A DNA stretch of 64,000 nucleotides. It comes from Shigella phage Sf13. Position numbers and translations under genes: made by a program. Shown here one piece after another: positions 32,922 to 47,889 of the stretch. The DNA lies in the sequence record MF158040; one strand, written 5' to 3'. Below the pieces are notes generated by a model. It had not been told where the DNA came from. It made no database searches and saw only the letters and a program-made list of their open reading frames with translations. Positions within the stretch are counted from its first letter, which is position 1. The number at the start of each line of letters is the position of its first letter.

Positions 32922-33269
32922 TTACTTGTTTTGATTCTGCATTGCAAGCTCTTTTTTATTAATTTCTTGCGCTATCACAATATAATAATCTTTCAGGTTT
33001 ATATCTTGAATTGACTCTAGAAGTATGTCATAATCACTGATTAATTTAAAATCACCGTCTAGAATGTTATCAATCCGGTATGTCTCTGCTTTAAATCGAA
33101 AGCTCATCTCTAAACGTTTCAATTGTTCTAAGTTCAAACGCTCTAAAAAGCCCCGTACAAGGTTTATTTTTAAATCCCTTGTAAGTGCCTTATTAGCTAT
33201 ACTGTGCGCTTGTAAGGCTTTATAGAGCGCCACAATAGAGATAAAAATTGCAACGTATGTGATTAACAT
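32922..33269 (-). CDS. hypothetical membrane protein (115 aa, N-terminal TM)
   Basis: ORF track; ATG overlaps stop of upstream gene; C-terminus KKELAMQNQNK shared with small ORF 29471..29611. Confidence 0.5.
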   Translation of the reverse strand: MLITYVAIFISIVALYKALQAHSIANKALTRDLKINLVRGFLERLNLEQLKRLEMSFRFKAETYRIDNILDGDFKLISDYDILLESIQDINLKDYYIVIAQEINKKELAMQNQNK

Positions 33270-33559
33270 TTGTTTTTACCTTTGTGGAATAGTTTACCAG
33301 TGTGACTAATTTCATATGAATCAACCATATCTCTAGTGGTCTTAATCGATGACTTATTAGTGTTATCATAGATATCAACCTGAAGCAATGGTTTTTTGTA
33401 TTCTTTACAAAAGTTCCATACACAAATTATTACTTCCTTTTTGTTAATCTTTCCATGATACCACTCTACGGCTTCAGATGTACGGCGCATGGATTCAATG
33501 AATTGGATATTACTTAATAGCTGGCTTAATTTAGTTCTAACGTTTGCGGCAATAAACAT
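33263..33559 (-). CDS. hypothetical protein (98 aa)
   Basis: ORF track; ATG after leader. Confidence 0.5.
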   Translation of the reverse strand: MFIAANVRTKLSQLLSNIQFIESMRRTSEAVEWYHGKINKKEVIICVWNFCKEYKKPLLQVDIYDNTNKSSIKTTRDMVDSYEISHTGKLFHKGKNKC

Positions 33560-33643
33560 TTTAGATTCTCCAGTTTAGGATTGTTTGTAAAGCTCTTTAT
33601 CTGGGGCTATCTTATCAACTTGATAACCCCATGTAAAGCACTT
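33560..33643 (-). promoter_or_regulatory. intergenic cassette, long form
   Basis: TTTACA, 17 bp, TAnnnT; GGGG/CCCC flanks; leader. Confidence 0.55.
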
Positions 33644-34156
33644 TTAGATATTAAAGATATTCATAACAGAATCTTTCAAGGCTTCTAAACGTTCCATTAC
33701 TTCAGATTCTCCATCGGAGTTCGACACTTCCTCTTCTAATCGTGAATCTAAATCTTCACCGTCAAGATAGCACCAATCGAAGCCATAAGCAAGAGAAAAG
33801 CTATTTAATACTGTATTACCTTCTTTATCTTCTACCTTTGCAAATAGCACGTAGCTGTTAGCCTCTAAATCTCTTTGTAATTCATCTTGTAAGCTCTTGT
33901 AAGCCTCTATAGATGGATTTTCGCGGCCTTGTTTAGCATAATCACTCATCAATTGTGAAAGGCTGTAATGCTGTGGAATTGCATATTTGTACCCGTTACG
34001 CTCTGGATTTTTAAGTTTGATTGTAACCCCGCCTTTGTGCTCATCGGTAAACTTCCAATTTTCCACACAATGGGATGCTTCACAAATATTAACAGCTTCA
34101 TAGATGATAGTGAATTTTTCTTTTTGAACTTCAAAGGTAGCTTCAACGTATGACAT
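33644..34156 (-). CDS. hypothetical protein (170 aa)
   Basis: ORF track; ATG after leader. Confidence 0.5.
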   Translation of the reverse strand: MSYVEATFEVQKEKFTIIYEAVNICEASHCVENWKFTDEHKGGVTIKLKNPERNGYKYAIPQHYSLSQLMSDYAKQGRENPSIEAYKSLQDELQRDLEANSYVLFAKVEDKEGNTVLNSFSLAYGFDWCYLDGEDLDSRLEEEVSNSDGESEVMERLEALKDSVMNIFNI

Positions 34157-34248
34157 ATTAAGATTCTCCAGTTTAGGACTATTGGTTAGTAAAGCTCTTT
34201 ATCTGGGGCTTATACTAGCAACTTATAAACCCCATGTAAAGCACTTTA
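34157..34248 (-). promoter_or_regulatory. intergenic cassette, long form
   Basis: TTTACA, 17 bp, TAGTAT; GGGG/CCCC flanks; leader variant. Confidence 0.55.
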
Positions 34249-34506
34249 TCAGATTAAATTGTCAGTTAATGATAAGTGCATTTTATAACCTTTCTTCGTG
34301 TAGACGTTAGTTCTACCGATTGCTTTTACACCTTTGAAAAGGTCATAGGAACTACGTTTTAAAGTAATTTCCTTATCACATTTCACGCCCCATCTTACAG
34401 CAGATTCTTTTCCGTTGTCAACCACTTTACCATTTAATTTTTTAGCAGTTGCGCGAGCGTCATCACGAGATTTTGCAGATACAATGATGTTTTTGATAGT
34501 AGCCAT
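34249..34506 (-). CDS. hypothetical protein (85 aa)
   Basis: ORF track; ATG after leader. Confidence 0.5.
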   Translation of the reverse strand: MATIKNIIVSAKSRDDARATAKKLNGKVVDNGKESAVRWGVKCDKEITLKRSSYDLFKGVKAIGRTNVYTKKGYKMHLSLTDNLI

Positions 34507-34597
34507 TTTTGATACTCCAGTTTAGGTTATTGTTTGGTAAAGCTCTTTATCTGGGGCTTATCTTATCTAACTATAAACCCCATGTAAAGGACTTTAT
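34507..34597 (-). promoter_or_regulatory. intergenic cassette, long form
   Basis: TTTACA, 17 bp, TAAGAT; leader variant CCTAAACTGGAGTATCAAAA. Confidence 0.55.
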
Positions 34598-34978
34598 TTA
34601 GTTAATTTTGAAAACTGTAACGTAGCCATCACTACCAATAGTTTGAGATACTCCAGCTTTCTCTATATCATACCCCATTTTATCAAGATGGTACATTGCA
34701 TCTTCATACCCATATTTACCGCCTTGATAGCGTCTTTTTTCGCATCGTATCACAGTTTTACCACGTCCTGCAATAGCATTTATGATAGCTTTTTCACCGG
34801 ATAATGTACCGTCAAGCATAGTAGCTTTGTAGTGGTTAATACGGTTACCATTAACATCATACTTAAAATTGTAAGCGTGAACAACAATTATTTTTCCTTT
34901 GAAGTTTTCTTTCATAGTTTCCTCTAAGATACTACGAAAGTTTTCTTTGTTGATAAATTTAGGCGCACGATATTTCAT
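34598..34978 (-). CDS. hypothetical protein (126 aa)
   Basis: ORF track; ATG after leader. Confidence 0.5.
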   Translation of the reverse strand: MKYRAPKFINKENFRSILEETMKENFKGKIIVVHAYNFKYDVNGNRINHYKATMLDGTLSGEKAIINAIAGRGKTVIRCEKRRYQGGKYGYEDAMYHLDKMGYDIEKAGVSQTIGSDGYVTVFKIN

Positions 34979-35062
34979 TTTAGATTCTCCAGTTTAGGAT
35001 TGTTGGTAAAGCTCTTTATCTGGGGCTTAAGATACTAGATTTTAAACCCCATGTAAAGCACT
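34979..35062 (-). promoter_or_regulatory. intergenic cassette, long form
   Basis: TTTACA, 17 bp, TATCTT; GGGG/CCCC flanks; leader. Confidence 0.55.
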
Positions 35063-35224
35063 TTATGCAATAATTTTTATAAAATATTTCATGGTTATTT
35101 TGTCGCCATTGGTAAGGGCTATACAATCATTACCCATAGCAGACTTATAGAGATAGAAGACTTTACCAATTTTTGGGTATCCGTCTAAATCTTTGTATTG
35201 TATTACATCGCTTTCTTTAATCAT
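35063..35224 (-). CDS. hypothetical protein (53 aa)
   Basis: ORF track ORF (TTG start) trimmed to ATG at M27 with AAAGG RBS; candidate TTTACA-N17-TTATTA promoter upstream. Confidence 0.4.
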   Translation of the reverse strand: MIKESDVIQYKDLDGYPKIGKVFYLYKSAMGNDCIALTNGDKITMKYFIKIIA

Positions 35225-35235
35225 TGTCAAGCCTT

Positions 35236-35442
35236 TTAAACGTTGTAATAATAAATTGCTGTATGCCTTGTAAACTGTCTTGTATGAGTTGTCAAGTAAC
35301 AATCTGAACTGATTGACGTATCAACATATTCATCAAAATCCTTTTCTGAGATACGTTGCCAAACATCACAAATTAGCATATAGAAACGACGTTTATTTGT
35401 TTTGTTGTTGTCAACAATCATTAACTCACGTTGATATAACAT
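35236..35442 (-). CDS. hypothetical protein (68 aa)
   Basis: ORF track; ATG after leader. Confidence 0.5.
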   Translation of the reverse strand: MLYQRELMIVDNNKTNKRRFYMLICDVWQRISEKDFDEYVDTSISSDCYLTTHTRQFTRHTAIYYYNV

Positions 35443-35500
35443 TTTAGATTCTCCAGTTTAGGATTGTTGGGATGTTTCCCGTTGATGCAAATACTATAAG
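35443..35500 (-). promoter_or_regulatory. intergenic cassette, short form
   Basis: Hairpin GGGA-aaca-TCCC plus conserved leader; same variant as 30746-30823. Confidence 0.5.
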
Positions 35501-35693
35501 ACTGGATTTATGAAGTCAACAAAATTTTTAAAAATATTTTCGATGCTTCGTGAATAGAACGCACGTATGCGGATACACTAAAACAGGAATTTAGTCAAGA
35601 ATTATTTTTGAGTTCTCTACAAATTTTTCTCTTGACTTTTGGGAGGAAGGGGATTAAGAGGGGATGGTGGGGCTGGTTTCCTACAGCTACCTA

Positions 35694-35885
35694 CCTGCAC
35701 AATTTGAAAATGAATTTTCCCTTTGGAGTCCAACTGCATCTGCACAGATTGAAAATGAAAAAGCTCTTTGGAGTCTAAACCTGCACAAATTTGAAATGAA
35801 TTTTCCCTTTGGAGTTCAGCTAAAGAAATCTGTCCAGAGTTCTATGCAACTATACCTGCACAAATTTAAAATGAAAAAGCCCTCC
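35694..35885. repeat. four imperfect ~40-bp direct repeats (CCTGCACAAATTTGAAAATGAA...TTTGGAGT)
   Basis: Units start near 35694, 35740, 35780, 35855; indels between units shift the frame of the overlapping plus ORF. Confidence 0.55.
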
Positions 35886-35946
35886 TTACCTGAGATTTTT
35901 AAACTCAAACTTTGGAGGGCTTGTCTATGTCTAGCTAGGTGACTTA

Positions 35947-36741
35947 TTAGTTACGTGCTTCAACATAGCTTACGTTTTCATGTGTGATATAATCTTCTGC
36001 AAACTCTTCTGTAGTAGCATTGATATATACACTTGCATCATCGCCAAACGTTACCGCTCTGTGGTGGTGGCCTTGTAACGGGTGGGTAACTTGAGCGTTA
36101 CTTCGATTGTACTTATCAACCGGAGGGTAACTGGTGTGTACCTTGCCATTACGCTTCACCTTGAGGGTAACTTTATCCTTGCCTACCACAGCAACACCAT
36201 CAAAGTATTGAGGCTCACTGAAGTTCTCCCAACCAGTAACAGGACTAGTCAACTGACTGTACATCTTATCTTCATAGACATACATATATACGTCAACATC
36301 TTTCATGGTCTGATTAATAATGGACAGCACAGCCATACTATCAAGACCACCAATCCCTGCACCAATCATAGGGAGTCCAACCTTCTTAAGCTGGTTTACT
36401 TTACAGTAGTTGTTAAGACGCTGTAAAGCTGCTTCTAAGGCATTGTATCGTGCATTTTTTCCAGTGATAACCTGAGTATAAAGGTTAGCAATTCGACCCT
36501 GCTTCAAACGTGCTACAGAGATGTTACCAAGCATTAGATTCTTAGGGTTATGGTTTTCACCACCTACTGTAGCATAAACTTCAGCGTCAGTTTCATAAGC
36601 TTTTGGGTAGCGTTTAGCAATTGTTGCTGCGATACCTGCACCCATCAAGTTCATGCAGTTACAACCGTGACCAATGATATCAAACTTCTTACCATCAAAG
36701 TCTTTAAAGATATCACCTTTAATAATTTTTACGATACCCAT
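35947..36741 (-). CDS. macro domain (ADP-ribose binding/processing) protein with C-terminal domain of unknown function
   Basis: Macro-like motifs IIKGDIF...GHGCNCMNLMGAGIAATIAKRYP ... KKVGLPMIGAGIGGLD; start set to ATG at M20 one nt after the zinc-ribbon gene stop. Confidence 0.55.
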   Translation of the reverse strand: MGIVKIIKGDIFKDFDGKKFDIIGHGCNCMNLMGAGIAATIAKRYPKAYETDAEVYATVGGENHNPKNLMLGNISVARLKQGRIANLYTQVITGKNARYNALEAALQRLNNYCKVNQLKKVGLPMIGAGIGGLDSMAVLSIINQTMKDVDVYMYVYEDKMYSQLTSPVTGWENFSEPQYFDGVAVVGKDKVTLKVKRNGKVHTSYPPVDKYNRSNAQVTHPLQGHHHRAVTFGDDASVYINATTEEFAEDYITHENVSYVEARN

Positions 36742-36742
36742 A

Positions 36743-36943
36743 TTAGTAATGCTCCCAACGTTCGTTATCTTCAGATGGTTTAACTCGGTTACCTTCATGG
36801 TCTACCCATAAAGCACCGCAACCTTCACAGATTACTGGCATTGCTGAACCAGCTTCAAACTCTGCCTTTGTAAAGAGACCTTTTAAGTCTCCTGTATCTT
36901 TTCCAAACATCTCAACAGAACACTTAGTGCAGAAATCAGCCAT
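36743..36943 (-). CDS. zinc-ribbon protein (66 aa; CxxC...CxxC)
   Basis: ORF track; Cys pairs FCTKC and CEGC; coupled to macro-domain gene. Confidence 0.5.
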   Translation of the reverse strand: MADFCTKCSVEMFGKDTGDLKGLFTKAEFEAGSAMPVICEGCGALWVDHEGNRVKPSEDNERWEHY

Positions 36944-37172
36944 TTGATATTACCTCTTGGAAGTATGTATCACCTTCATAAGAGTAATTACACTTAAACT
37001 CTTCTAAGCTTAATCTTGTAAGCAGAGGATTCAGGTAGTGTTTAAAATCCCCTATCTTGAAGTTGTAGTGAATCAAGGGGTTCATGAATGGTATTACCTC
37101 ATCCCGTCCAACAAATATAGCCCCTACTAACACTTGACGTGTAACTTTACTTCTTACCAGAATTGCTTTCAT
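36936..37172 (-). CDS. hypothetical protein (78 aa)
   Basis: ORF track. Confidence 0.45.
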   Translation of the reverse strand: MKAILVRSKVTRQVLVGAIFVGRDEVIPFMNPLIHYNFKIGDFKHYLNPLLTRLSLEEFKCNYSYEGDTYFQEVISNG

Positions 37173-37473
37173 ACATCACCTTTTCAGTTAGCTCAAACAG
37201 GTCAACATGTTCGATGCTTTCAATATGGATACCAACTTTTGCATAGCGTTCTTTAACATTCTCTGCATTAAGCCATATCAGACACCAATGATTCTCTATG
37301 GATTCTTCAAGCTTGTCAACACAATCTTTAAAAGATTTCATATCTCCACGAGTACCAATGAATGCAACAACCCCATAGAGAAACTCTTTACCACTGTGAC
37401 AGACTTGTGCTGTACCAATTTCCTTTTCACCGTCTGAGAAGACGGCTACATAATTCTTACCATCTAGTTGCAT
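37147..37473 (-). CDS. hypothetical protein (108 aa)
   Basis: ORF track ORF (GTG) trimmed to adjacent ATG with GAGGG RBS. Confidence 0.45.
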   Translation of the reverse strand: MQLDGKNYVAVFSDGEKEIGTAQVCHSGKEFLYGVVAFIGTRGDMKSFKDCVDKLEESIENHWCLIWLNAENVKERYAKVGIHIESIEHVDLFELTEKVMYESNSGKK

Positions 37474-37482
37474 CACTAACCC

Positions 37483-37752
37483 TCACTTCCTCGTTTTAAG
37501 GACTGCATAGATTTCTTTAGAATCTTCTCCGAACCATGTGTAGTGATTCTCGTTGATTTCAGGATGGTTGTCAACACGTATTTTGCAATCTCTTCCAACA
37601 TGCTTAAGTTGTGCAGAAACACCCTGCATAAAGATGTGACAAGTTACATCATCCATAACCGTTGGCATAATGTCAAATCTCATGTAAGTATTACTTGGTC
37701 TTGGTAACAGAAGATAACCTTCCACAAAAAATGTTTCATTCTTCTCTGTCAT
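37483..37752 (-). CDS. hypothetical protein (89 aa)
   Basis: ORF track; ATGA overlap with upstream gene. Confidence 0.45.
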   Translation of the reverse strand: MTEKNETFFVEGYLLLPRPSNTYMRFDIMPTVMDDVTCHIFMQGVSAQLKHVGRDCKIRVDNHPEINENHYTWFGEDSKEIYAVLKTRK

Positions 37753-38018
37753 TGCTGCTTATTCCCTAACAAAATCATATCAATCAAATTGTTTGCCTTG
37801 ATAGTACATTCATAGTAACCATCACGATAAAACTCAAGAGCACTTGCAAGGTCTGCACCTTTAGTACCTTTAACCTCATACCGTGCTTCTTCTTGAGTGT
37901 ACTTGTCACTCTCACTTACTTGGGAGTTTTTGAAGGTACTGTTCACTTTGTTCGTTGAACACCCTGACATAAGGCTCAGTAGCACAATCATTAATAAAGA
38001 CTGTCTTAGTTTTTTCAT
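37749..38018 (-). CDS. outer-membrane lipoprotein, o-spanin-like (Rz1-like)
   Basis: Signal peptide with lipobox LMSGC; start lies inside 3' end of the upstream TM protein gene in another frame. Confidence 0.45.
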   Translation of the reverse strand: MKKLRQSLLMIVLLSLMSGCSTNKVNSTFKNSQVSESDKYTQEEARYEVKGTKGADLASALEFYRDGYYECTIKANNLIDMILLGNKQQ

Positions 38019-38259
38019 AGTTCAATACCTCTTTGGTGTGTTTGTTTTTAGCAAGCACATCTTTCAAATCATTTTTGTAATTGGAGCTAAGATTTGATAA
38101 ACCCTCTTGATAAGCATCTTTAGCAACACTCACAAGTCTCTGGTTAGTTAACTCCTTTTCATTAACTTGGCTGGTCTTGTAAGTGTAACCTCCCCAAGCA
38201 CCAACACCTGTTAAGAAAATGATTACAAAAGCTGCTTGACAAAATTCTTTAAACGTCAT
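37912..38259 (-). CDS. inner-membrane protein, i-spanin-like (Rz-like)
   Basis: N-terminal TM segment FVIIFLTGVGAWGGYTY then charged helical region; AGGAG RBS; overlaps lipoprotein gene. Confidence 0.45.
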   Translation of the reverse strand: MTFKEFCQAAFVIIFLTGVGAWGGYTYKTSQVNEKELTNQRLVSVAKDAYQEGLSNLSSNYKNDLKDVLAKNKHTKEVLNYEKTKTVFINDCATEPYVRVFNEQSEQYLQKLPSK

Positions 38260-38276
38260 TTAACTTCTCCTAGAAA

Positions 38277-38299
38277 TGAAAAAGGCTCCCGAAGGAGCC
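38277..38299 (-). terminator. rho-independent terminator (minus strand)
   Basis: GGCTCCTTCGGGAGCC hairpin followed by TTTTTC on minus strand. Confidence 0.55.
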
Positions 38300-38311
38300 T
38301 CTATAATAACT

Positions 38312-38776
38312 TTAACCAAGAACTTTCGCAAGGACATTTGCTGCCATTGTTGAGGCTTTTGAAGCAGCAGCTACGCCAGCCTTAATGGTATTGTCCTTAA
38401 TCGCAGAAACCGTTGCAGTATCTGTGAAGAGGTAAGTGGTAGTTTGAGAACCACTTGTAAAGGAAAGCATAAGAGCAGTTTCCAGATTGAAAGAACGGTA
38501 AGGAGCACCGGATTGTACAATCCCTTTTGCACCTAACTCTGAAGCCATACCCATATCATAGATAGTCATCAGATTTTCTTTATGAGCAGTAGTTGAACCA
38601 ACACCCTTAACGTGTTTTGTGACATTCAACATTGCACGATACTCACGAATGTTACCATCAGCTTTCACGTTTACTGCACGAAAGATTTTACCATCGAAAT
38701 TACTTTTGATAATCTCACGAACTACCTGTGATTTGTTACCGGAAGCATCGATAGCTACTGTAATAATGTTTTGCAT
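38312..38776 (-). CDS. hypothetical protein (154 aa)
   Basis: ORF track; ATG start. Confidence 0.45.
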   Translation of the reverse strand: MQNIITVAIDASGNKSQVVREIIKSNFDGKIFRAVNVKADGNIREYRAMLNVTKHVKGVGSTTAHKENLMTIYDMGMASELGAKGIVQSGAPYRSFNLETALMLSFTSGSQTTTYLFTDTATVSAIKDNTIKAGVAAASKASTMAANVLAKVLG

Positions 38777-38787
38777 GGTTTACTCTC

Positions 38788-39483
38788 TCAGTTTTTAACA
38801 AGCATTGTTTTGATGTGTGGTAAGATTCTTTCAACCTTTGCCACGTTCTTCACTGTATCTTCTATAAAGCATACTACATCATAGTAGGGTAGAATGCAAG
38901 ACTGAAGCATACGAACTTTCAAACTTTCTGCACTAATCTCATTGTCACCAAATCCACGCATAAACAGTAGGAAATCACTGTCTACATTCTCATTCAGGAA
39001 AAGATGTGTGACAACTCTTTGTGATTCACCACGAGCAGTTAGGAATCCTATATCAGCATTTCTTGATATACCACACAGGATGTTAAAAACATATGTTGGT
39101 TTAGCTCTGCGAGAGTCTACCAAGTTAGTATATTGTGAGTAAGAACCATCATCTAACAGAGTTGCATTAAGTTTCTTGTCAAAGCTTGTAAGAACACCAT
39201 CAATGTCTGCTAAGACCATTTTACGTTTTTCTTCCAAGTTCTTTGCAACCAAGATAAGGCTGTTACGACCAACATATACAGTTTTACCTGTTAGCAAATC
39301 CTGACAAGGAATCTGTGTCTTTGTTGAGTGGAAGTCTTCAAAGCTACACACAACATTTCTTGCTGTATCTGCAAAGTCAGCTTTAGCAATATCTGACCAA
39401 CTTGCAGAACTGATATCTAAATCAAGTGGTTTAATATCATAAGCATGACACAGAACCATATCAAATTGTTTTGATTCGCTCAT
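38788..39483 (-). CDS. HAD-superfamily hydrolase candidate (nucleotidase/phosphatase-like)
   Basis: Motif VLADIDGVLT resembling HAD motif I (DxDGxT); otherwise unassigned. Confidence 0.35.
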   Translation of the reverse strand: MSESKQFDMVLCHAYDIKPLDLDISSASWSDIAKADFADTARNVVCSFEDFHSTKTQIPCQDLLTGKTVYVGRNSLILVAKNLEEKRKMVLADIDGVLTSFDKKLNATLLDDGSYSQYTNLVDSRRAKPTYVFNILCGISRNADIGFLTARGESQRVVTHLFLNENVDSDFLLFMRGFGDNEISAESLKVRMLQSCILPYYDVVCFIEDTVKNVAKVERILPHIKTMLVKN

Positions 39484-40009
39484 ATTTTACCTTTTTAATG
39501 TTTGTTGCAAACTCACATTGAGCCAGCAGTTTCATGTTATTGTACACATCTTGAGAGTATTGTCTAGCCTTTGGAATCTTGTATTTGTAACCAGCATTAT
39601 AAGAAGCTAGGACACGCTTCATAGAGTACTTTCCATCTGGGTTACCATGAACCTTAGTCCAGAATAATAGCTCCTTATGAGCCTCTTTCGCTGAGTAATG
39701 GAAGTCACTTACTAGCTTCTTCTTAGCAACCTTTGGAGATACCTTGTTACGCTTTACAACAGTCTTCAAGTGATTCTGGAAAACACCATAATCATGAGTC
39801 TTTTTATTTTCTAACATGACACCTAATTGTGACTCTTGTAAGGCTATAGCTGCTAAAGGGATTCCCCAACCTTTTCCCATCTGCCCTTCGCCATAGTTAT
39901 ATGCTTTTAACATATTAACTTTCTGGCTGATTGTAAGCTCTGGACAGTCAGATGCTGTAGCTAAATGTGCTGTAAAGAATAAGCACAAACCTAAAACAAA
40001 TTTCTTCAT
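39461..40009 (-). CDS. secreted lytic transglycosylase (SLT-domain) protein
   Basis: Signal peptide MKKFVLGLCLFFTAHLATAS; SLT-like motif AAIALQESQLG...YGVFQ; start set to M9 with AGGAG RBS. Confidence 0.45.
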   Translation of the reverse strand: MKKFVLGLCLFFTAHLATASDCPELTISQKVNMLKAYNYGEGQMGKGWGIPLAAIALQESQLGVMLENKKTHDYGVFQNHLKTVVKRNKVSPKVAKKKLVSDFHYSAKEAHKELLFWTKVHGNPDGKYSMKRVLASYNAGYKYKIPKARQYSQDVYNNMKLLAQCEFATNIKKVKYERIKTI

Positions 40010-40110
40010 TTGCACTCCTATTTTGTTAAACATGCAGACAATTATACACTAACCTGCACATTTTTCAAATAAAAAAGGCTGCCGAAGCAGCCCCTTTAGG
40101 AATTTACTTA

Positions 40111-41232
40111 TTAAACTTCACGTTTACGCTGAGAAATCAGTTCACCAGCAGTACCTACAACTACGTGGAGTGCTTCTGAACCATCCCACTCTTTGATGAC
40201 TTCACGGCGACTATTTACAATCGCTGCAACTTCATAGCGGGAAGCTCGCATTTTCATGTCGTTGTAGTCAGTTGGTACTGAAACAACATCACGAGGATGA
40301 ACACGAACTTTCAGGATAGTGTCACCAGAGAAGCTAGTTACATAATCCCAAGCACCAACGTGCAGACCCTGAGAGCAGGTTACATGACGGTTATTATCAA
40401 CCATCCAACGTGGCATCTCTACAATGTTACCCAAATCATTTGGAACTTTGCAGGTACGAGAGTCAAACAGTTTACCACCACGAGTTGTGACTTTCTTCCA
40501 GCCGATGATATAACCTTCTTCATCAATTTCAACATCAAGGTGTGATACAAAGCCCCAAAGTTGTTCTACAGAATCTTTTGATGGGTTTTCCATCAGTTTT
40601 TCGAAGAATGCAATCAGTCGAACAAAACCATTATCACCTTTCTTCATCATATCCAGAATACGGTCTACCAGAGTTGAGCGCATCTGAACAGCACCGTAAT
40701 ACAGGTTGTCACCTTTGATGGTTACAGCACCTTGAGTGAAGTTCTCAATAGACTTGCGAATGTTCATCAGTTCAAAAGCTTTCTTGTACTCACCTGAAAC
40801 AACAGCCATTACAATATCAGTGTAGTTAGGATGAGTTGACTCAACAATCTCAGACTCTGCACCGAAAGTCATGATAACAGAATCACCAGTAATCATGTAC
40901 TCAATCTGGCTGTTATTCTGCATTGCTTCATGCAGAGCATTTACAGGTTCTGCTTTGACTGCTTCTTTAACAGCTTTTGCAACAGGTTTCTGCTTAGATA
41001 CCTTCTTAGTCGCTTTAGCTTTCTTAGCACTCTTTGCAATATCTTTCAGAGTCTTTGCAGGTTTTGCTTTGGTTTTCCCTGACAGCAGTGTTGCTTCATG
41101 ACGCTCTACAGCACGACCTACCGAACGGGTTGAAGTGTTATACTTCAGAGCAATTGCAGTTTTGGTAAGTTTACCTTCTTTAACCAGTGCATAGATTTCT
41201 GCGTCGATTTGTGCTTTAGTCTTAGTAGTCAT
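40111..41232 (-). CDS. rIIB: rIIB-like protein
   Basis: Recalled similarity to T4 rIIB (LVDRILD, ENPS, GWKKV motifs); directly downstream of rIIA-like gene. Confidence 0.6.
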   Translation of the reverse strand: MTTKTKAQIDAEIYALVKEGKLTKTAIALKYNTSTRSVGRAVERHEATLLSGKTKAKPAKTLKDIAKSAKKAKATKKVSKQKPVAKAVKEAVKAEPVNALHEAMQNNSQIEYMITGDSVIMTFGAESEIVESTHPNYTDIVMAVVSGEYKKAFELMNIRKSIENFTQGAVTIKGDNLYYGAVQMRSTLVDRILDMMKKGDNGFVRLIAFFEKLMENPSKDSVEQLWGFVSHLDVEIDEEGYIIGWKKVTTRGGKLFDSRTCKVPNDLGNIVEMPRWMVDNNRHVTCSQGLHVGAWDYVTSFSGDTILKVRVHPRDVVSVPTDYNDMKMRASRYEVAAIVNSRREVIKEWDGSEALHVVVGTAGELISQRKREV

Positions 41233-41311
41233 TTCAATATCTCTCTTTGTTGTTTAAAATTACTTAGTGGTTCGTATTCTAAGGGGCTTTTCAGCCCCTG
41301 TCAAACTATTT

Positions 41312-43684: not shown

Positions 43685-43746
43685 AAGAATATCTCCTTAG
43701 TTGTCGATGTGGCAAACTATATAATTTTATAGATGCCACTGTCAAG

Positions 43747-43926
43747 TTACTTTTTAAATTTCTTTCCAGTTCCATTACAGTAAGGGCAACAATGACCTAT
43801 ACCAACTACCCCAGAACCTTCACACTCATCACAAGGTTCGGTCTCTGAGAAGTACTTGCATAGTAACACTGCAAAAGCAACTATACAACCGAGTGAAAGA
43901 ACAATTTCTAACCAATAACCTTGCAT
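43747..43926 (-). CDS. small membrane-anchored protein with two CxxCxGxG (DnaJ-type) zinc-finger motifs (59 aa), not in ORF track
   Basis: ATG with AGGAG RBS 9 nt upstream; N-terminal TM segment; CDECEGSG and CPYCNGTG motifs. Confidence 0.4.
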   Translation of the reverse strand: MQGYWLEIVLSLGCIVAFAVLLCKYFSETEPCDECEGSGVVGIGHCCPYCNGTGKKFKK

Positions 43927-44243
43927 ACCTTATCTCCTATAGTTCTGAATAGGACAAAACTCCTGTCATGGACAATACTCGAAGATACTGCAAAACTATT
44001 CTCAAGTATCTTTTTGTTTGGATTGTAAAATTCTTCTTGAAACAAATCAAGAGCTTCTTGATGGTTCTGTGGAAGACCTTTGATATAAACCTTCAAAGTA
44101 ACCGTTGTATAAATCTCAGAAGCTAACTCTGATTGTGCTGCTTGAAACAGTTCATTGATAAACTTATGACCATCTTCATGGCGCTTGATGTTTTCCCAAC
44201 GCTCTTCAATGATTAAATTAACATTCATCTGTTTAATTTTCAT
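43908..44243 (-). CDS. hypothetical protein (111 aa)
   Basis: ORF track ORF (GTG) trimmed to ATG at M5 with GGAGA RBS; preceded by terminator. Confidence 0.45.
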   Translation of the reverse strand: MKIKQMNVNLIIEERWENIKRHEDGHKFINELFQAAQSELASEIYTTVTLKVYIKGLPQNHQEALDLFQEEFYNPNKKILENSFAVSSSIVHDRSFVLFRTIGDKVCKVIG

Positions 44244-44260
44244 AGTAATCTCCACAAATT

Positions 44261-44281
44261 AAAAAGGCTCCCGTAGGAGCC
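44261..44281 (-). terminator. rho-independent terminator (minus strand)
   Basis: GGCTCCTACGGGAGCC hairpin followed by TTTTT on minus strand. Confidence 0.55.
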
Positions 44282-44296
44282 TCTTATCATACTGTT

Positions 44297-46114
44297 TTAA
44301 AGTTGCTTGTCAATAGTATTTCGAACATCACGCAGGTTAATGTAACCATAAGGTTGCGAGTTGCTAAATACCAGTTTCAAAGCACTATGACAATTGTCAA
44401 TTGCACCTTCAAACTCTGCAAAGCCAAAACCATCTACAGCTACCAGCTTGTCACCATCCCACATAGGGACAACTCCACCAAAAGCAGACTTCTTAAGACC
44501 GCTGTCAGTTTTAGGGTCTTTAGCCAGCATAATTTCTTGACCATCCATCTGTGCAAGAGTTGCTTTAACAGCAAATGCAAAGGTGTCACGAGTCAGGTAC
44601 TGATAGGTGTATGAGCCTACACCAAACACTACGTTAGAACTTGCAAAACCTTTATCAGCAAGACGTGACAGAATCTCATTAGCCCTTTCCAGAGTGATAG
44701 AATCACCGTAGATTAGTCCAATGTGCTCATCCAGTACTTTGTACCCTTTGGAGTTAATAGTGCCACCAAAGATGTTATACAGCGTGTGGATAGCTCCGTC
44801 AATTTCTGCTGTCAGCATACGCTTCACAGTAAACTGTCCAGTTTTCTGAGCGGTAATCAGGTTGATTGTATCAGCAGATTCAAAATCTTCTTTATCAACA
44901 ACCATCTCATAACCTTCAGAGATTAGCCAAGCAGAGAACCCAAAGCCAATATCAGACATTTCACAATTCAAGATTGTGTCATGCAGATGTGTATTGTTCG
45001 GTGCAAGCTCTTTCATGTGCTTATAGAACATTGACTTAGCAGTTTCCCATTCAATGGCTTTGTAACCTGTGACAATGTGAACAGGGTCTCCAGAGTCTGG
45101 ACGGATTACCAACTTACCATCACGATTCAGGATTACATTACGTAGCTCTGGCAGAATCTGTGTAACAGTACGCCAGAAGTTGTAAGTATCTGATACGGCA
45201 CTTGCAATACCAGTTGGGTAAACTTCTGTCAGAAGGCGATGGAAAGTTTCTACCTCACCACGCCAACGCATTGCATCAAGTAAGTTGTCAGAATGCGATA
45301 GATGCCAATCACTTACCTCTTTGTTAAGACTGTTCCATGAGATGTTTGCACACATCACAGAGTGCTCAGTAGCTGGGACAGAGTTACCAATCTCACCTAC
45401 ATTCATAAACTGACCATATGCACGTTTAGCTGTATATACAGCAGGGAAGCTGTCAGTACCTTTAAAACTTGTCAGGTGACCTACTGCGTTAAACGCATCA
45501 TCTGTGAAGCCAGACATACCACGCATTGCAAAGTCATGACACTGCCAAGGTAAATGGAAGTCGTTGTCACAGGTCTTGTCAGCCCATTGCTTACAAATAC
45601 GTTTGTAGTGCAGTGCAATTGTTGCAATCGTACAAGCTTTCCAGATTTCAGCAGAGAAAGCATCTTCAAGGTAACCAGCTACCCAATGGAATCCCTCTAC
45701 AGTGTTTTTGAATACAATCATCGGGACACGCATAGGGACAATTGTACCTTCCTCTACAGAGTAGACTTCAACAGGTAGGTAGCCCAAGTCATGAAGTTCT
45801 TCCCAATGTTGACGACCAATAGCATCTGCACCGAGAACACCATTCATGATTTCCAAGATTTCGTCAATGGCTTCTTTCTTATCACGTTCAAAGAACGTTG
45901 CATTCCAGTGGTCTACCAGATAGTCTTTTACAAAACGCTGAATACCAAAGGCTACAACACCATCAATCTCTAACGGAGAGTTAAACCATTTGTCTCCACG
46001 AGGTGTTAAGTTCAGCATAAGATACTGTGTAGCATCTGGATACTGGTAGAAATGGCCAGATTTGTAGGCATCTGCATTAAGTGCTGCTGGTACTGCATAA
46101 AGTGATTTAGTCAT
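44297..46114 (-). CDS. nicotinamide phosphoribosyltransferase-like protein (NadV/NAMPT family; Namat-like)
   Basis: 605 aa; NAMPT-family size and recalled sequence character; adjacent to Prs-like gene. Confidence 0.55.
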   Translation of the reverse strand: MTKSLYAVPAALNADAYKSGHFYQYPDATQYLMLNLTPRGDKWFNSPLEIDGVVAFGIQRFVKDYLVDHWNATFFERDKKEAIDEILEIMNGVLGADAIGRQHWEELHDLGYLPVEVYSVEEGTIVPMRVPMIVFKNTVEGFHWVAGYLEDAFSAEIWKACTIATIALHYKRICKQWADKTCDNDFHLPWQCHDFAMRGMSGFTDDAFNAVGHLTSFKGTDSFPAVYTAKRAYGQFMNVGEIGNSVPATEHSVMCANISWNSLNKEVSDWHLSHSDNLLDAMRWRGEVETFHRLLTEVYPTGIASAVSDTYNFWRTVTQILPELRNVILNRDGKLVIRPDSGDPVHIVTGYKAIEWETAKSMFYKHMKELAPNNTHLHDTILNCEMSDIGFGFSAWLISEGYEMVVDKEDFESADTINLITAQKTGQFTVKRMLTAEIDGAIHTLYNIFGGTINSKGYKVLDEHIGLIYGDSITLERANEILSRLADKGFASSNVVFGVGSYTYQYLTRDTFAFAVKATLAQMDGQEIMLAKDPKTDSGLKKSAFGGVVPMWDGDKLVAVDGFGFAEFEGAIDNCHSALKLVFSNSQPYGYINLRDVRNTIDKQL

Positions 46115-46158
46115 CTTTTTATCTCTCTCAAAGTGGGGCTTTTCAGCCCCTAAAGTTG

Positions 46159-47040
46159 TTATTCAATATTTGCTACTGTCACTTGTGAGAAGTGGGAAAG
46201 ACCACGGTCTTTTTCATCCCCTAGTGAGTCTGTAGTGTAGATATGGTCGATGCCATTGTCAAGAAGATTTTCAACACCTTTAGAGAAAATCCCATGAGTA
46301 ACATAAAGCTCTACACGTTCTGCTCCAGCTTCACGAAGATACTTTGCAGCCTCGATAAAGGTTCGACCACCATCACAGATATCATCCAGAATCATAACAG
46401 TCTTACCTGTTAAGTCTACATCATCAAGGATTCGCATACCAGTGATTTCACCAGTTTTCAGGTTTCGTACCTTTGCCATTGTGATATAAGGTTTCTCAAC
46501 CTCTTTAGCAGCCTCTTCAGTCTTCTTAGCTGCACCTGCATCTGGAGCCACTAAGTAATCAATGCGTGGGTCACTTGCAAAGTGGACTGCTGCCTCTTTT
46601 TGAGGGATGTTGTAGAAGCACTTAAACAAGTTCTCTGCTACATTACTGTGAGTATCCAGAGCACATACTGCATCAAACCCCATAGCATTTACAAGATTTG
46701 CAAAGACTTTAAGTGCTGCTGAATCGCCTTTAAACATGTGACGGTCATAGCGAGCATTTGGTAAGAATCCAAAAAGAACAGTTTTCATGGTTGCTTTCTG
46801 AGGAATCAAACGGTCAATAGCCTCTTTAGCCATAGCCAATGCAAAGAGTGTGTCTTTGTCATAACCTTGTACAGTGAATATTACGTTTTCAATCTTACCA
46901 GCAGCATGTTCAGCAAAGTCTACTAAGTCTTCTGAGAAGTTACCACCAATCTCCCCAGAAGGGAACTGGATAATGTTGAAGGTCTCTTGATGAGAACCTT
47001 TGGAATTTGAATTAAGTAGAACTCGAATAGTAGTTTTCAT
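46159..47040 (-). CDS. ribose-phosphate pyrophosphokinase-like protein (Prs family; Adps-like)
   Basis: PRPP-synthetase-like motifs (LVAPDAGAAKK; MILDDICDGGRTF); track TTG start trimmed to ATG at M7 with GAGAGAG RBS. Confidence 0.55.
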   Translation of the reverse strand: MKTTIRVLLNSNSKGSHQETFNIIQFPSGEIGGNFSEDLVDFAEHAAGKIENVIFTVQGYDKDTLFALAMAKEAIDRLIPQKATMKTVLFGFLPNARYDRHMFKGDSAALKVFANLVNAMGFDAVCALDTHSNVAENLFKCFYNIPQKEAAVHFASDPRIDYLVAPDAGAAKKTEEAAKEVEKPYITMAKVRNLKTGEITGMRILDDVDLTGKTVMILDDICDGGRTFIEAAKYLREAGAERVELYVTHGIFSKGVENLLDNGIDHIYTTDSLGDEKDRGLSHFSQVTVANIE

Positions 47041-47050
47041 AATATCTCTC

Positions 47051-47356
47051 TCAGTCAAAAGTTACAAATGTTACAGCCATAGCTGATTTACATTTCTTTG
47101 GGTCTACAATGTGGTAGATAACTGAACAGTTTCCTGTTCCGTCTGGTACTGGTTTTGTCCAAGTACGTTCAATATTTGGCTCTCCAAACTCTTTATAGAA
47201 TCCGTTGGAGTAGTGGTCTATCATCTCAATAGCAAGTGCATCTGGGACGTGACCACGTATCATATACATCTCACTACCATTTCCAGCTTCGCTAATAAGC
47301 TCTTTGATATCCCATTGTTCTCTAGCCATGATAAGTTGCCTCATAAACTGTCTCAA
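47051..47356 (-). CDS. hypothetical protein (101 aa)
   Basis: ORF track. Confidence 0.45.
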   Translation of the reverse strand: MRQFMRQLIMAREQWDIKELISEAGNGSEMYMIRGHVPDALAIEMIDHYSNGFYKEFGEPNIERTWTKPVPDGTGNCSVIYHIVDPKKCKSAMAVTFVTFD

Positions 47357-47837
47357 GCTTCAACAAGAGAGATATTGCCAGAAATGCGTATTCCCTGTCA
47401 AGCATTGGTGGCATATTATTTATAAGATATGCTTCCTGTTCTTCCCAAGTCATCTTAGGAGCTTCTGGAAGCTTCTCTCCTTGCTTCTGGTTATCTTCTT
47501 GAGTCTGGATAAACCAGTTCGAGCAATGGTGCTCTCCACCTTTTGTCACGGGCTTATGGTGGCCTAACGTGAAAGCTTTCTTTCCAGAATATCTACAAAG
47601 CTTATTAAGGGTTGCAATAGTATTCTTGACAACACAGTATTCATAGAGGTTGTCAATAGTGTAATGAGGGTAGTACTGGAACAAGGCACTATCACGGAAC
47701 TTACCACGGTTCCAAAGCACCATGTGATTAGAATTTGAAGGGTCATACTGATGTGACTCGATGAACTCTTGACGCTCATCAAAATCAAGACGAAGAACAG
47801 ACATTGCAGCAGCACGTTTCAGATTTGAATGGTACAT
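47322..47837 (-). CDS. HNH endonuclease (free-standing homing endonuclease candidate)
   Basis: HNH-like motif LGHHKPVTKGGEHHCSNW; own RBS after terminator. Confidence 0.5.
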   Translation of the reverse strand: MYHSNLKRAAAMSVLRLDFDERQEFIESHQYDPSNSNHMVLWNRGKFRDSALFQYYPHYTIDNLYEYCVVKNTIATLNKLCRYSGKKAFTLGHHKPVTKGGEHHCSNWFIQTQEDNQKQGEKLPEAPKMTWEEQEAYLINNMPPMLDREYAFLAISLLLKLETVYEATYHG

Positions 47838-47846
47838 GATTTCTCC

Positions 47847-47875
47847 AAAATAAAAAGGGAACCTTTTACAGTTCC
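47847..47875 (-). terminator. rho-independent terminator (minus strand)
   Basis: GGGAAC-loop-GTTCCC hairpin followed by TTTTTATTTT on minus strand. Confidence 0.55.
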
Positions 47876-47889
47876 CTAATCATATACGC

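What the first reader, a model, noticed from the sequence alone, without database searches (positions are those of the whole stretch)
35947..36943. Macro-domain protein translationally coupled to a zinc-ribbon protein
ORF 35947..36741 carries macro-domain signature motifs (GDIF..., GHGCNCMNLMGAGIAATIAKRY, VGLPMIGAGIGG) followed by about 110 residues of unknown function. Its start lies one nucleotide after the stop of a 66-aa CxxC...CxxC zinc-ribbon gene. Macro domains bind or hydrolyse ADP-ribose derivatives; from established knowledge this could reverse ADP-ribosylation-based toxicity (DarT-like) or degrade ADP-ribose-derived immune signals. That this pair is a counter-defence module is inference.
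Basis: partly seen in the sequence, partly recalled or inferred. Interest (0 to 1): 0.65.

Follow-up and report, generated by a model that had tools for sequence, protein, structure and literature searches.

The report
Phage macrodomain counter-defence enzyme, known family
This Felix-O1-like phage carries an already-annotated macrodomain enzyme from a phage family whose members undo ADP-ribose-based bacterial defences; it has an unexplained extra domain, and the small zinc-ribbon gene next to it is probably only a neighbour.

Summary
On the minus strand, a 264-aa macrodomain ORF (35947-36741) starts one base after the stop of a 66-aa CxxC...CxxC gene (36743-36943). The window is a Mooglevirus (Ounavirinae, about 98% identical to Shigella phage Sf15). 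GenBank already annotates this gene as "macro domain-containing protein" or "phosphatase". The fold is confirmed (AF2 pLDDT 91.7; best PDB matches Poa1p, TARG1, DarG). The active site has an invariant Gln where DarG, TARG1 and PhiKZ AdfM have the catalytic Lys. This Gln type is shared with two tested phage counter-defence macrodomains. T4 Tk.4 (anti-DarTG2) is 40% identical. Vibrio phage Adpp is 31% identical; it is an ADPR-1''-phosphate phosphatase that lets NARP1 beat the aRES defence. The window also encodes NARP1, 7.5 kb upstream. I rank DarT2 reversal at about 0.4 and Adpp-like activity at about 0.35; the two are not exclusive. The C-terminal ~107 residues are a lineage-specific domain with no fold or sequence match. 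The zinc-ribbon "module" idea is not supported. That family occurs alone in rV5-like, T5-like and Pseudomonas phages. Erwinia phage phiEa21-4 keeps a macro gene and NARP1 but has no zinc ribbon. Tight gene spacing is the rule throughout this operon. Interest is modest.

The parts
35947..36741 (-). Macrodomain protein gene (264 aa plus stop), last gene of its transcription unit
   Evidence: ORF and sequence. Orthologues are annotated as Sf18 gp70, Sf14 gp040 and Bas63_0095. PHROG 335 E=5e-106.
36271..36741 (-). Macro domain proper (residues 1-157). Gln-type active site: His25-Gly-Cys-Asn28-Cys, Gly34-Ala-Gly36-Ile-Ala, Asn86-Leu-Tyr-Thr-Gln90, Pro124-x-Ile-Gly-Ala-Gly129
   Evidence: Pfam Macro. 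AF2 plus Foldseek matches to Poa1p, TARG1 and DarG. TARG1 Lys84 aligns with the invariant Gln90.
35950..36270 (-). C-terminal domain (residues 158-264), beta-rich, specific to Ounavirinae macro proteins, function unknown
36743..36943 (-). 66-aa zinc-ribbon protein gene (MADFCxxCS...CEGCG; PHROG 2210), function unknown; a conserved neighbour, not a demonstrated partner
   Evidence: Four Cys residues are invariant across six distant homologues. PHROG 2210 E=3e-38. Present in 834 phage records in several unrelated contexts.
36752..36756 (-). GGGAG Shine-Dalgarno-like motif for the macro gene, inside the 3' end of the zinc-ribbon gene
   Evidence: Read directly from the sequence.
35866..35922 (-). 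Terminator-like hairpin (AAGCCCUCC...GGAGGGCUU) plus U-run, 25 nt after the macro stop codon
   Evidence: RNA fold -30.2 kcal/mol, z=-3.3 against shuffles. The simple consensus scan missed it because the loop is long.
44297..46114 (-). Namat (NARP1 nicotinamide ADP-ribose transferase), 7.5 kb upstream of the macro gene on the same strand; relevant to the Adpp-like reading
   Evidence: Pfam NAPRTase plus NAMPT_N. 76% identical to Bas63_0080. The nearly identical phage Sf15 is listed as a NARP1 carrier in the supplement of bioRxiv 10.1101/2024.02.11.579819.
46159..47040 (-). Adps (NARP1 ADPR pyrophosphokinase, PRPP-synthetase-like)
   Evidence: Pfam Pribosyltran and Pribosyl_synth. 81% identical to Bas63_0079, the Adps of the phage in which NARP1 was discovered.

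Best explanation
The 264-aa protein is a phage counter-defence hydrolase. It belongs to the Gln-type, Poa1p/SCO6735-like branch of the macrodomain superfamily. Its macro domain binds ADP-ribose and cleaves whatever is attached at the 1'' carbon of the distal ribose. I commit to the T4 Tk.4-type job as the most likely physiological one. In that job the enzyme removes ADP-ribose from thymidines that a host DarT2 toxin places on phage single-stranded DNA, so replication can continue. The invariant Gln90 would position the ribose and a catalytic water, as shown for Gln85 of SCO6735. It replaces the Lys used by DarG2, TARG1 and PhiKZ AdfM. The lineage-specific C-terminal domain packs on the macro domain and probably supplies substrate or partner binding. 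The gene is the last in a tightly packed early or middle operon and has its own Shine-Dalgarno motif. The upstream zinc-ribbon gene is a syntenic neighbour with an independent, unknown role. Shown here: the fold, the motifs, the homologies and the gene distribution. Inferred: the substrate, the role of the C-terminal domain and any phenotype. The general claim (a counter-defence ADP-ribose-1'' hydrolase) I hold at about 0.8. The specific DarT2 claim I hold at the confidence given below.
For: The macro fold is confirmed. The closest genetically tested homologue is T4 Tk.4: 40% identity over 136 residues, E=2e-20. Deleting tk.4 makes T4 sensitive to DarTG2 (bioRxiv 10.1101/2025.11.20.689424). 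The window protein shares the HGCNC motif, the NLYTQ motif and the short loop after the Gln with Tk.4 and the Vequintavirus macros. All nine NARP1-adjacent macros examined carry a 7-10 residue insertion in that loop. In bootstrapped NJ trees the window groups with Tk.4 excluding Adpp in 25 of 100 replicates, against 6 of 100 for the reverse. The window-Tk.4 distance is the smaller in 73 of 100 replicates. A Gln at this position is compatible with ADPr-thymidine hydrolysis: SCO6735 Gln85 is essential for that activity (PMC9411070). The clade is common in phages that lack NARP1, such as T4-like and rV5-like phages, so its general role does not depend on NARP1. An extra domain is more expected for a macromolecular substrate; DarG2 is also macro plus a second domain (PMC11825919).
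Against: The tree is essentially unresolved (69 of 100 replicates place the window with neither), and BLAST bit scores do not separate the candidates: JG004 NARP1-adjacent macro 80.5, Tk.4 72, Gary Adpp 64. For Tk.4 only a genetic phenotype is reported; de-ADP-ribosylation of DNA was not shown biochemically. The catalytic Lys of every biochemically characterised DarT2-reversing antitoxin or Adf (DarG2, PhiKZ AdfM) is absent. The genome carries NARP1, and macro and NARP1 are co-inherited across three Ounavirinae genera, which fits the Adpp reading. The C-terminal domain shows no similarity to the DarT-binding domain of DarG2. No sensitivity data for any Ounavirinae phage on DarTG2 hosts were found.
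Confidence: 0.4

Rival explanations
1. The protein is an Adpp-like ADPR-1''-phosphate phosphatase acting in trans with NARP1. Host RES-domain NADases (aRES) split NAD+ into nicotinamide and ADPR-1''-phosphate, which NARP1 cannot use. The macro enzyme would remove the phosphate so that the phage's own Adps and Namat (46159-47040 and 44297-46114) rebuild NAD+. This is not exclusive of the DarT2 reading; one active site could do both.
For: Full-length alignment to the biochemically proven Adpp of Vibrio phage Gary: 31% identity, E=9e-18. The His-x-x-Asn-Cys and Tyr-x-Gln motifs are shared with all NARP1-adjacent macros. His25 corresponds to Poa1p His23. The window encodes NARP1, a pathway discovered in the related phage Bas63, which has the same layout: genes 0079/0080, then 0094/0095. 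Macro and NARP1 co-occur in Mooglevirus, Felixounavirus and Kolesnikvirus with similar divergence, 42-44%. aRES occurs in E. coli, Klebsiella and Enterobacter.
Against: The gene is not in the NARP1 operon. It lies 7.5 kb and about 13 genes downstream, beyond a strong terminator at 38302-38281. The Adpp paper's table of NARP1-adjacent macros contains no Ounavirinae. The loop insertion found in all nine NARP1-adjacent macros is absent here. phiEa21-4 has Gln at the His25 position. Co-occurrence within one subfamily may simply reflect shared ancestry.
Confidence: 0.35
2. The protein is a hydrolase for another ADP-ribosylated substrate. Candidates are protein or RNA ADP-ribosylation (for example CmdTAC-type mRNA modification, or reversal of phage or host ART activity) and O-acetyl-ADP-ribose.
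For: Enzymes of this macro class are promiscuous. SCO6735 and TARG1 act on both protein and DNA substrates. Some records annotate orthologues as O-acetyl-ADP-ribose deacetylase. Iyer et al. argue that phage macros may prefer soluble ADPr derivatives (PMC9503650).
Against: No homologue in this Gln-type phage clade has been shown to have such a role. No ADP-ribosyltransferase gene was seen near the gene, although I did not screen the rest of the window for one.
Confidence: 0.15
3. One reading: the zinc-ribbon protein and the macro protein form a translationally coupled two-component counter-defence module, for example with the zinc ribbon acting as a DNA- or toxin-binding subunit.
For: Adjacency with a 0-1 nt gap is conserved in 241 Ounavirinae records and in Bas63 and L010.
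Against: The zinc ribbon occurs without an adjacent macro gene in rV5 (last gene before a terminator), in T5-like phages (between tRNA genes), in PaMx35 (next to an RNase H-like exonuclease) and in a Stenotrophomonas phage. Vequintaviruses have both genes but unlinked. phiEa21-4 has a macro gene and NARP1 but no zinc ribbon anywhere in its genome. L007, L008 and L009 lack it upstream of the macro gene. Spacing is equally tight between all genes of the operon.
Confidence: 0.1

Closest known systems
T4 Tk.4, named AdfM in the HIDEN-SEQ preprint (bioRxiv 10.1101/2025.11.20.689424): anti-DarTG2 macrodomain
   Same: Same Gln-type phage macro clade. 40% identity; HGCNC and NLYTQ motifs and the short post-Gln loop are shared. 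Both are from virulent coliphages.
   Different: Tk.4 is a single-domain 155-aa protein in a phage without NARP1. The window protein has an extra 107-aa C-terminal domain and sits in a NARP1-encoding genome.
Adpp of Vibrio phage Gary (NARP1-AP pathway; bioRxiv 10.64898/2026.01.28.702374): ADPR-1''-phosphate phosphatase countering aRES
   Same: Homologous over the whole macro domain (31% identity). The His...Asn-Cys and Gln motifs are shared. Both phages encode Adps and Namat.
   Different: Adpp lies between Adps and Namat and has a 7-residue insertion after the Gln, HQCNC/YGQ motifs and no C-terminal domain. The window gene is 7.5 kb from NARP1.
DarG2 antitoxin, PhiKZ gp104 AdfM (Cell Rep 2026, PMC13309987) and human TARG1
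   Same: Same macro class (ALC1-like) and fold. The Asn of the N-terminal motif is conserved. DarG2 is also a two-domain protein.
   Different: Their catalytic Lys (Taq DarG K80, AdfM K78, TARG1 K84) is Gln90 here, and His25 is absent in DarG2 and AdfM. The DarG HMM scores 55 bits here against 133-138 for AdfM. However, T4 Tk.4 scores only 36, so the HMM score does not predict function. The C-terminal domains are unrelated.
Streptomyces SCO6735 and Bacteroides BT1257 (PDB 5E3B, 2FG1)
   Same: Gln at the catalytic position. SCO6735 Gln85 is essential for ADPr-thymidine DNA hydrolysis (PMC9411070). Both are profile hits at about 1e-13 to 1e-14.
   Different: These are bacterial single-domain proteins with a longer, Lys-rich mobile loop. 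I could not obtain a residue-level alignment outside the Gln position.
Yeast Poa1p (PDB 6LFQ/6LFR): ADP-ribose-1''-phosphate phosphatase
   Same: Best Foldseek match (E=1.8e-10). IHSCNC...GGGIA aligns with GHGCNC...GAGIA, and His23 aligns with His25. This is the source of the 'phosphatase' annotation.
   Different: 24% identity. Poa1p Ser30 and Phe152 are not conserved (Leu32, Gly131). It is a eukaryotic tRNA-splicing housekeeping enzyme.

Membership tests
Macrodomain superfamily (Pfam PF01661) | Profile score above the curated gathering threshold | tested here: met
   33.9 bits against a cut-off of 22, E=3.5e-8, residues 25-141.
Macrodomain superfamily (Pfam PF01661) | Three-layer alpha/beta/alpha macro fold with the Gly-rich diphosphate-binding loops | tested here: met
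   AF2 pLDDT 91.7. Foldseek matches Poa1p, TARG1 and DarG with probability 1.0 and target-normalised TM 0.77-0.87. G34-A-G36-I-A and G127-A-G129 are invariant or nearly so.
DarG2 / PhiKZ-type AdfM / TARG1 (Lys-type ADP-ribosyl glycohydrolases) | Catalytic Lys (Taq DarG K80, AdfM K78, TARG1 K84) | tested here: not met
   The position is Gln90, invariant in 32 family members.
DarG2 / PhiKZ-type AdfM / TARG1 (Lys-type ADP-ribosyl glycohydrolases) | Active-site Asn (Taq DarG N22, AdfM N23) | tested here: met
   Asn28 is invariant.
DarG2 antitoxin | C-terminal DarT-binding domain and an adjacent darT gene | tested here: not met
   hhalign of the C-terminal-domain profile against the C-terminal 206 residues of a Klebsiella DarG2 gives probability 0.2%. 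No darT is annotated or seen near the gene. The NCBIfam DarG score is 54.8 against a cut-off of 250.
T4 Tk.4-type anti-DarTG2 macro (Gln-type phage clade) | Sequence homology, with the HGCNC and NLYTQ motifs and a short loop after the Gln | tested here: met
   40% identity, E=2e-20; motif table.
T4 Tk.4-type anti-DarTG2 macro (Gln-type phage clade) | Protects the phage from DarTG2; removes ADP-ribose from thymidine in ssDNA | not testable with these tools
   Needs plaque assays and an in vitro assay. Only the T4 genetic result is known.
Adpp (NARP1-AP ADPR-1''-phosphate phosphatase) | Homology to the tested Adpp of Vibrio phage Gary | tested here: met
   31% identity over 164 columns, E=9e-18.
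Adpp (NARP1-AP ADPR-1''-phosphate phosphatase) | Encoded within two genes of Adps or Namat (the paper's operational definition) | tested here: not met
   NARP1 is at 44297-47040 and the macro gene at 35947-36741, with about 13 genes and a terminator between them. No Ounavirinae appear in the paper's Table S1.
Adpp (NARP1-AP ADPR-1''-phosphate phosphatase) | Adps and Namat present in the same genome | tested here: met
   The same holds in Bas63 and phiEa21-4.
Adpp (NARP1-AP ADPR-1''-phosphate phosphatase) | Insertion of 7-10 residues after the Gln. This is my own empirical feature, seen in 9 of 9 NARP1-adjacent macros, not a published criterion. | tested here: not met
   The window, Bas63 and phiEa21-4 have the short loop, like Tk.4.
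Adpp (NARP1-AP ADPR-1''-phosphate phosphatase) | ADPR-1''-phosphate phosphatase activity | not testable with these tools
   Requires an LC-MS assay.
Zinc-ribbon family PHROG 2210 | CxxC...CxxC with the conserved MADFC and CEGCG motifs | tested here: met
   PHROG E=3e-38. The four Cys are invariant in six homologues down to 38% identity. Metal binding itself was not tested.
Obligate macro plus zinc-ribbon gene pair | Co-occurrence and adjacency outside one phage subfamily | tested here: not met

The most novel reading that the evidence does not exclude
The Ounavirinae enzyme is a dual-purpose counter-defence protein. One Gln-type active site would both strip DarT2 ADP-ribose from phage DNA and dephosphorylate aRES-made ADPR-1''-phosphate, feeding the released ADP-ribose into the phage's own NARP1 pathway. 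The orphan C-terminal domain would be a new fold that tethers the enzyme to a partner such as the DarT2 toxin, ssDNA or the replisome, or Adps. If so, Bas63-type phages are de facto NARP1-AP phages, and the reported 15% frequency of phosphatase-assisted NARP1 is a large underestimate.
Probability: 0.2. Interest if true: 0.6.

Novelty: new variant of a known kind. Interest (0 to 1): 0.35.

Why it matters
Two preprints from 2025-2026 give members of this phage macrodomain clade different counter-defence jobs: anti-DarTG2 in T4, and ADPR-1''-phosphate salvage for NARP1 in a Vibrio phage. The Felix-O1-like phages are the natural place to ask whether these are one activity or two. They include Bas63, the model phage in which NARP1 was discovered. 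They carry NARP1 and also a Tk.4-like macro gene elsewhere in the genome, fused to a domain found nowhere else. A single deletion mutant tested on DarTG2 and aRES hosts would decide the question. It would also show whether surveys that count only operon-adjacent macros underestimate NARP1-AP. Beyond that, the gene is ordinary: macrodomains are reported in about 41% of myoviruses (PMC9503650), and this one is already annotated.

Tried and rejected
1. I used the DarG HMM score as a discriminator. The window scores 55 bits, PhiKZ AdfM 133-138 and Gary Adpp 35-45. I rejected this test once T4 Tk.4, which does counter DarTG2, scored only 36 bits.

2. Phylogeny to place the window with Tk.4 or with Adpp was unresolved. 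An NJ bootstrap gave 25, 6 and 69 of 100 replicates for Tk.4, Adpp and neither. An earlier Biopython bootstrap timed out.

3. C-terminal domain identification found nothing meaningful:
- Pfam: no match.
- BFVD: only the protein's own orthologue.
- Profile search of 1.84 billion proteins: only the same family, plus weak hits to PQQ/BamB beta-propeller blades that I regard as beta-hairpin resemblance.
- hhalign against the DarG2 C-terminal domain and the phiEa21-4 C-terminal extension: no similarity.
- The afdb50 library was unavailable.

4. The zinc ribbon is not aRad1, the small anti-aRES inhibitor. There is no BLAST similarity, and no aRad1a homologue in the window.

5. rV5 ORF25, the gene upstream of the rV5 zinc ribbon, is not a macro protein. 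EdH4_00040, near the Vequintavirus macro gene, is not a zinc ribbon.

6. The residues mutated in Adpp could not be recovered from the preprint text or its supplements.

7. A guessed accession for Bas63 (MZ501108) was wrong. The correct one, MZ501086, came from a supplement.

8. An Rfam scan of the repeat-rich gap downstream of the macro gene found nothing.

9. An RNA-repair role, processing Appr>p or ADPR-1''-phosphate from Tpt1-type ligation alongside the nearby polynucleotide kinase, was considered and set aside. From established knowledge, T4-type Pnkp repair produces no 2'-phosphate junction, and no Tpt1/KptA homologue was seen in the stretch I examined (about 33000-48200). The rest of the window was not searched for one.
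Full report
**What is there.** The window is a Mooglevirus (Ounavirinae, the Felix-O1-like myoviruses). The 3 kb around the finding is 98.5% identical to Shigella phage Sf15 and 97% identical to Sf18, Sf14 and Henu11. Both genes of the finding lie on the minus strand. The zinc-ribbon ORF is 36943..36743 (66 aa, Cys5/Cys8/Cys39/Cys42) and ends in TAA at 36745..36743. One base (36742) follows, then the macro ORF starts at ATG 36741 and runs to the stop codon at 35949..35947 (264 aa). A GGGAG motif lies 10 nt upstream of that ATG. It is also not new. The orthologues are annotated in GenBank as "putative macro domain-containing protein" (Sf18 gp70), "phosphatase" (Sf14 gp040, SUSP1, Bas63_0095) or "O-acetyl-ADP-ribose deacetylase".

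**The macro domain is real.**
- Pfam Macro scores above its gathering threshold (33.9 against 22 bits), and PHROG 335 gives E=5e-106.
- An AlphaFold2 model built on 32 homologues has pLDDT 91.7 and pTM 0.88.
- Its best PDB matches are Poa1p, TARG1 and the DarG macrodomains, at E about 1e-10 to 1e-9 and target-normalised TM 0.77-0.87.
- A profile of the family hits TARG1 (2e-17), M. tuberculosis DarG (7e-15), BT1257, Poa1p and SCO6735.

This places the protein in the ALC1-like (TARG1/DarG/Poa1p) class.

**Active-site type.** In the TARG1 alignment the catalytic Lys84 (Lys80 in Taq DarG, Lys78 in PhiKZ AdfM) falls on Gln90 of the motif Asn-Leu-Tyr-Thr-Gln, which is invariant in all 32 family members. 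TARG1 Asp125 falls on Gly131. His25 and Asn28 (HGCNC) are invariant; His25 matches Poa1p His23. A Gln at this position is not a dead site. In Streptomyces SCO6735 the equivalent Gln85 is essential for hydrolysis of thymidine-linked ADP-ribose on DNA (PMC9411070).

**Two tested relatives with different jobs.** A literature search found two experimentally characterised phage proteins of this same Gln type.
- *T4 Tk.4.* A transposon screen and a clean knockout show that tk.4 is needed for T4 to grow on DarTG2 hosts. The authors name it AdfM and infer removal of ADP-ribose from DNA (bioRxiv 10.1101/2025.11.20.689424). T4 Tk.4 is 40% identical to the window protein over 136 residues (E=2e-20).
- *Adpp of Vibrio phage Gary.* This macro protein is encoded between the NARP1 genes Adps and Namat. 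Purified, it converts ADPR-1''-phosphate to ADPR, and it lets NARP1 overcome the RES-domain NADase defence aRES (bioRxiv 10.64898/2026.01.28.702374). It is 31% identical over the whole macro domain (E=9e-18).

The name AdfM is also used for PhiKZ gp104 (PMC13309987). That is a Lys-type, DarG2-like macro and only 21-22% identical to the window protein.

**Which relative is closer?** Sequence alone does not decide.
- BLAST bit scores are 80.5 for the NARP1-adjacent JG004 macro, 72 for Tk.4 and 64 for Gary Adpp.
- A bootstrapped NJ tree is mostly unresolved. The window groups with Tk.4 excluding Adpp in 25 of 100 replicates, with Adpp excluding Tk.4 in 6, and with neither in 69.
- Motifs lean towards Tk.4. 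The window, other Ounavirinae, Tk.4 and the Vequintavirus macros share HGCNC, Tyr-Thr-Gln and a short loop after the Gln. All nine NARP1-adjacent macros taken from the preprint's Table S1 carry a 7-10 residue insertion there, and most have HQxNC and Tyr-Gly-Gln.
- DarG HMM scores looked discriminating at first (AdfM-PhiKZ 133-138 bits, window 55, Adpp 35-45). T4 Tk.4 scores only 36, so the measure says nothing about function.

**Genome context favours the other reading.** The window encodes the NARP1 pair 7.5 kb upstream on the same strand. Namat is at 44297-46114 (NAPRTase plus NAMPT_N) and Adps at 46159-47040 (PRPP-synthetase-like). NARP1 was discovered in Bas63, a Felixounavirus. The supplement of that paper lists Sf15, Sf16, Moogle, Michonne, Mordin, Felix O1 and phiEa21-4 as carriers. 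Bas63 has the same layout as the window: Adps 0079, Namat 0080, rIIA/B, polynucleotide kinase, spanins, zinc ribbon 0094, macro 0095. Identities to the window are 81, 76, 74 and 64% for Adps, Namat, zinc ribbon and macro. The distant Kolesnikvirus phiEa21-4 also keeps a macro gene (42% identity) and NARP1 (43-44%). Because the macro gene is about 13 genes from NARP1, and a strong terminator lies between them at 38302-38281, the Adpp paper's plus-or-minus-two-gene survey did not count any Ounavirinae.

**Weighing.** Both reactions cleave a substituent at the 1'' carbon of ADP-ribose, and macrodomains of this class are promiscuous. I hold the general statement, a counter-defence ADP-ribose-1'' hydrolase, at about 0.8. 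For the physiological substrate I put DarT2-modified DNA at about 0.4. The reasons are the motif and loop type, the presence of the clade in phages without NARP1, and the extra domain. I put ADPR-1''-phosphate for NARP1 at about 0.35, on the strength of the genome context and the biochemically proven homologue. Other substrates get about 0.15. The first two are not exclusive. No evidence points to degradation of Thoeris-type cyclic signals.

**The C-terminal domain.** Residues 158-264 fold confidently in the full-length model (block pLDDT mostly 84-94) and reasonably when folded alone (pLDDT 81). They form a small beta-rich domain with a terminal helix. The domain has:
- no Pfam match;
- no viral-structure match other than its own SUSP2 orthologue;
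- only five clusters at E<1e-10 in a profile search of 1.84 billion representative proteins, all of them the same phage macro family.

Weaker multi-stretch hits are blades of PQQ/BamB-type beta-propellers. I read these as beta-hairpin resemblance. The domain is unrelated to the DarT-binding domain of DarG2. The C-terminal extension of the phiEa21-4 protein is not detectably homologous to it. Its function is unknown; partner or substrate binding is inference.

**The zinc ribbon is a neighbour, not a shown partner.** The 66-aa protein belongs to PHROG 2210, with MADFCxxCS and CEGCG motifs and four invariant Cys. tblastn finds it in 834 phage records, in varied settings:
- In rV5 it is the last gene before a terminator, and the gene upstream is not a macro.
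- In T5-like phages it sits among tRNA genes.
- In PaMx35 it follows an RNase H-like exonuclease.
- It also occurs in a Stenotrophomonas siphovirus.
- Vequintaviruses have both genes, but unlinked.

Conversely, phiEa21-4 has no zinc-ribbon homologue anywhere in its genome. The metagenomic relatives L007, L008 and L009 have other genes upstream of the macro gene. The contiguous pair occurs in 241 records, all Ounavirinae-type, which is ordinary synteny. Spacing of -107 to +6 nt is the rule for all six junctions of the operon, so the 1-nt gap does not mark a special pair. The zinc ribbon is also unrelated to aRad1, the small anti-aRES inhibitor.

**Verdict.** The "pair" idea is not supported. 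The gene is a new variant (an added orphan domain, unlinked from NARP1) of a known and already annotated kind. Its main value is as a clean test case for whether the Tk.4 and Adpp activities are one and the same.

Noticed in passing
window 35693-35896: There are four direct copies of a 43-nt unit (ACCTGCACAAATTTGAAATGAATTTTCCCTTTGGAGT..., 63-100% identity, spacing 41-75 nt). They lie in the 504-bp gap between the macro gene and the next gene downstream. The motif occurs nowhere else in the window and has no Rfam match. A 92-aa plus-strand ORF over the repeats (35664-35942) has an internally repetitive translation, which makes me doubt it is a gene, although Sf14 annotates a small gene in the equivalent region.
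   Followed up: partly
window 35866-35922 (minus strand): A terminator-like hairpin (9-bp GC-rich stem with an inner stem-loop, then UUUUUCAUUUU) lies 25 nt after the macro stop codon. Fold z-score is -3.3. The consensus terminator scan missed it because of the long loop.
   Followed up: partly
window 44297-47040 (minus strand): A complete NARP1 NAD+-reconstitution operon (Adps plus Namat) is present, 76-81% identical to that of Bas63, the phage in which the pathway was discovered.
   Followed up: yes
L022 (T4 tk.4) and L012 (PhiKZ gp104): The literature uses the name AdfM for two different macro types. T4 Tk.4 is Gln-type (NLYTQ) and PhiKZ gp104 is Lys-type (FPTK). The two align only weakly, and T4 Tk.4 scores 36 bits on the DarG HMM against 133 for gp104.
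   Followed up: partly
alignment (Table S1 sequences of bioRxiv 10.64898/2026.01.28.702374): All nine NARP1-adjacent macro proteins examined have a 7-10 residue insertion just after the catalytic-position Gln. Macros from phages in which the gene is not next to NARP1 (Ounavirinae, T4, Vequintavirus) lack it. This may be a specificity determinant.
   Followed up: partly
L020 8482-9264 (Erwinia phage phiEa21-4 gp14): This Kolesnikvirus orthologue has Gln instead of the otherwise invariant His25 (IAQGCNC). Its C-terminal extension is of similar length but has no detectable homology to the Mooglevirus/Felixounavirus C-terminal domain.
   Followed up: partly
phage records MG065690, MG065642, MG065682, MG065666: Several records labelled 'Campylobacter phage' (113-143 kb) carry zinc-ribbon genes about 57-61% identical in protein to the window's. 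In identity and record length they resemble the rV5-like and T5-like coliphage records. They may be coliphage-like genomes deposited under a Campylobacter label.
   Followed up: no
window 38788-39483 (minus strand): The gene annotated as polynucleotide kinase in related phages gives no Pfam hit at E<0.001 here. Distant relatives show only weak HAD_PNKP hits, so the annotation rests on remote similarity.
   Followed up: no
L007 3694-4023: In one metagenomic relative, an HNH/AP2 homing-endonuclease gene is inserted directly upstream of the macro gene and overlaps it, in the place where the zinc-ribbon gene sits in the window.
   Followed up: no
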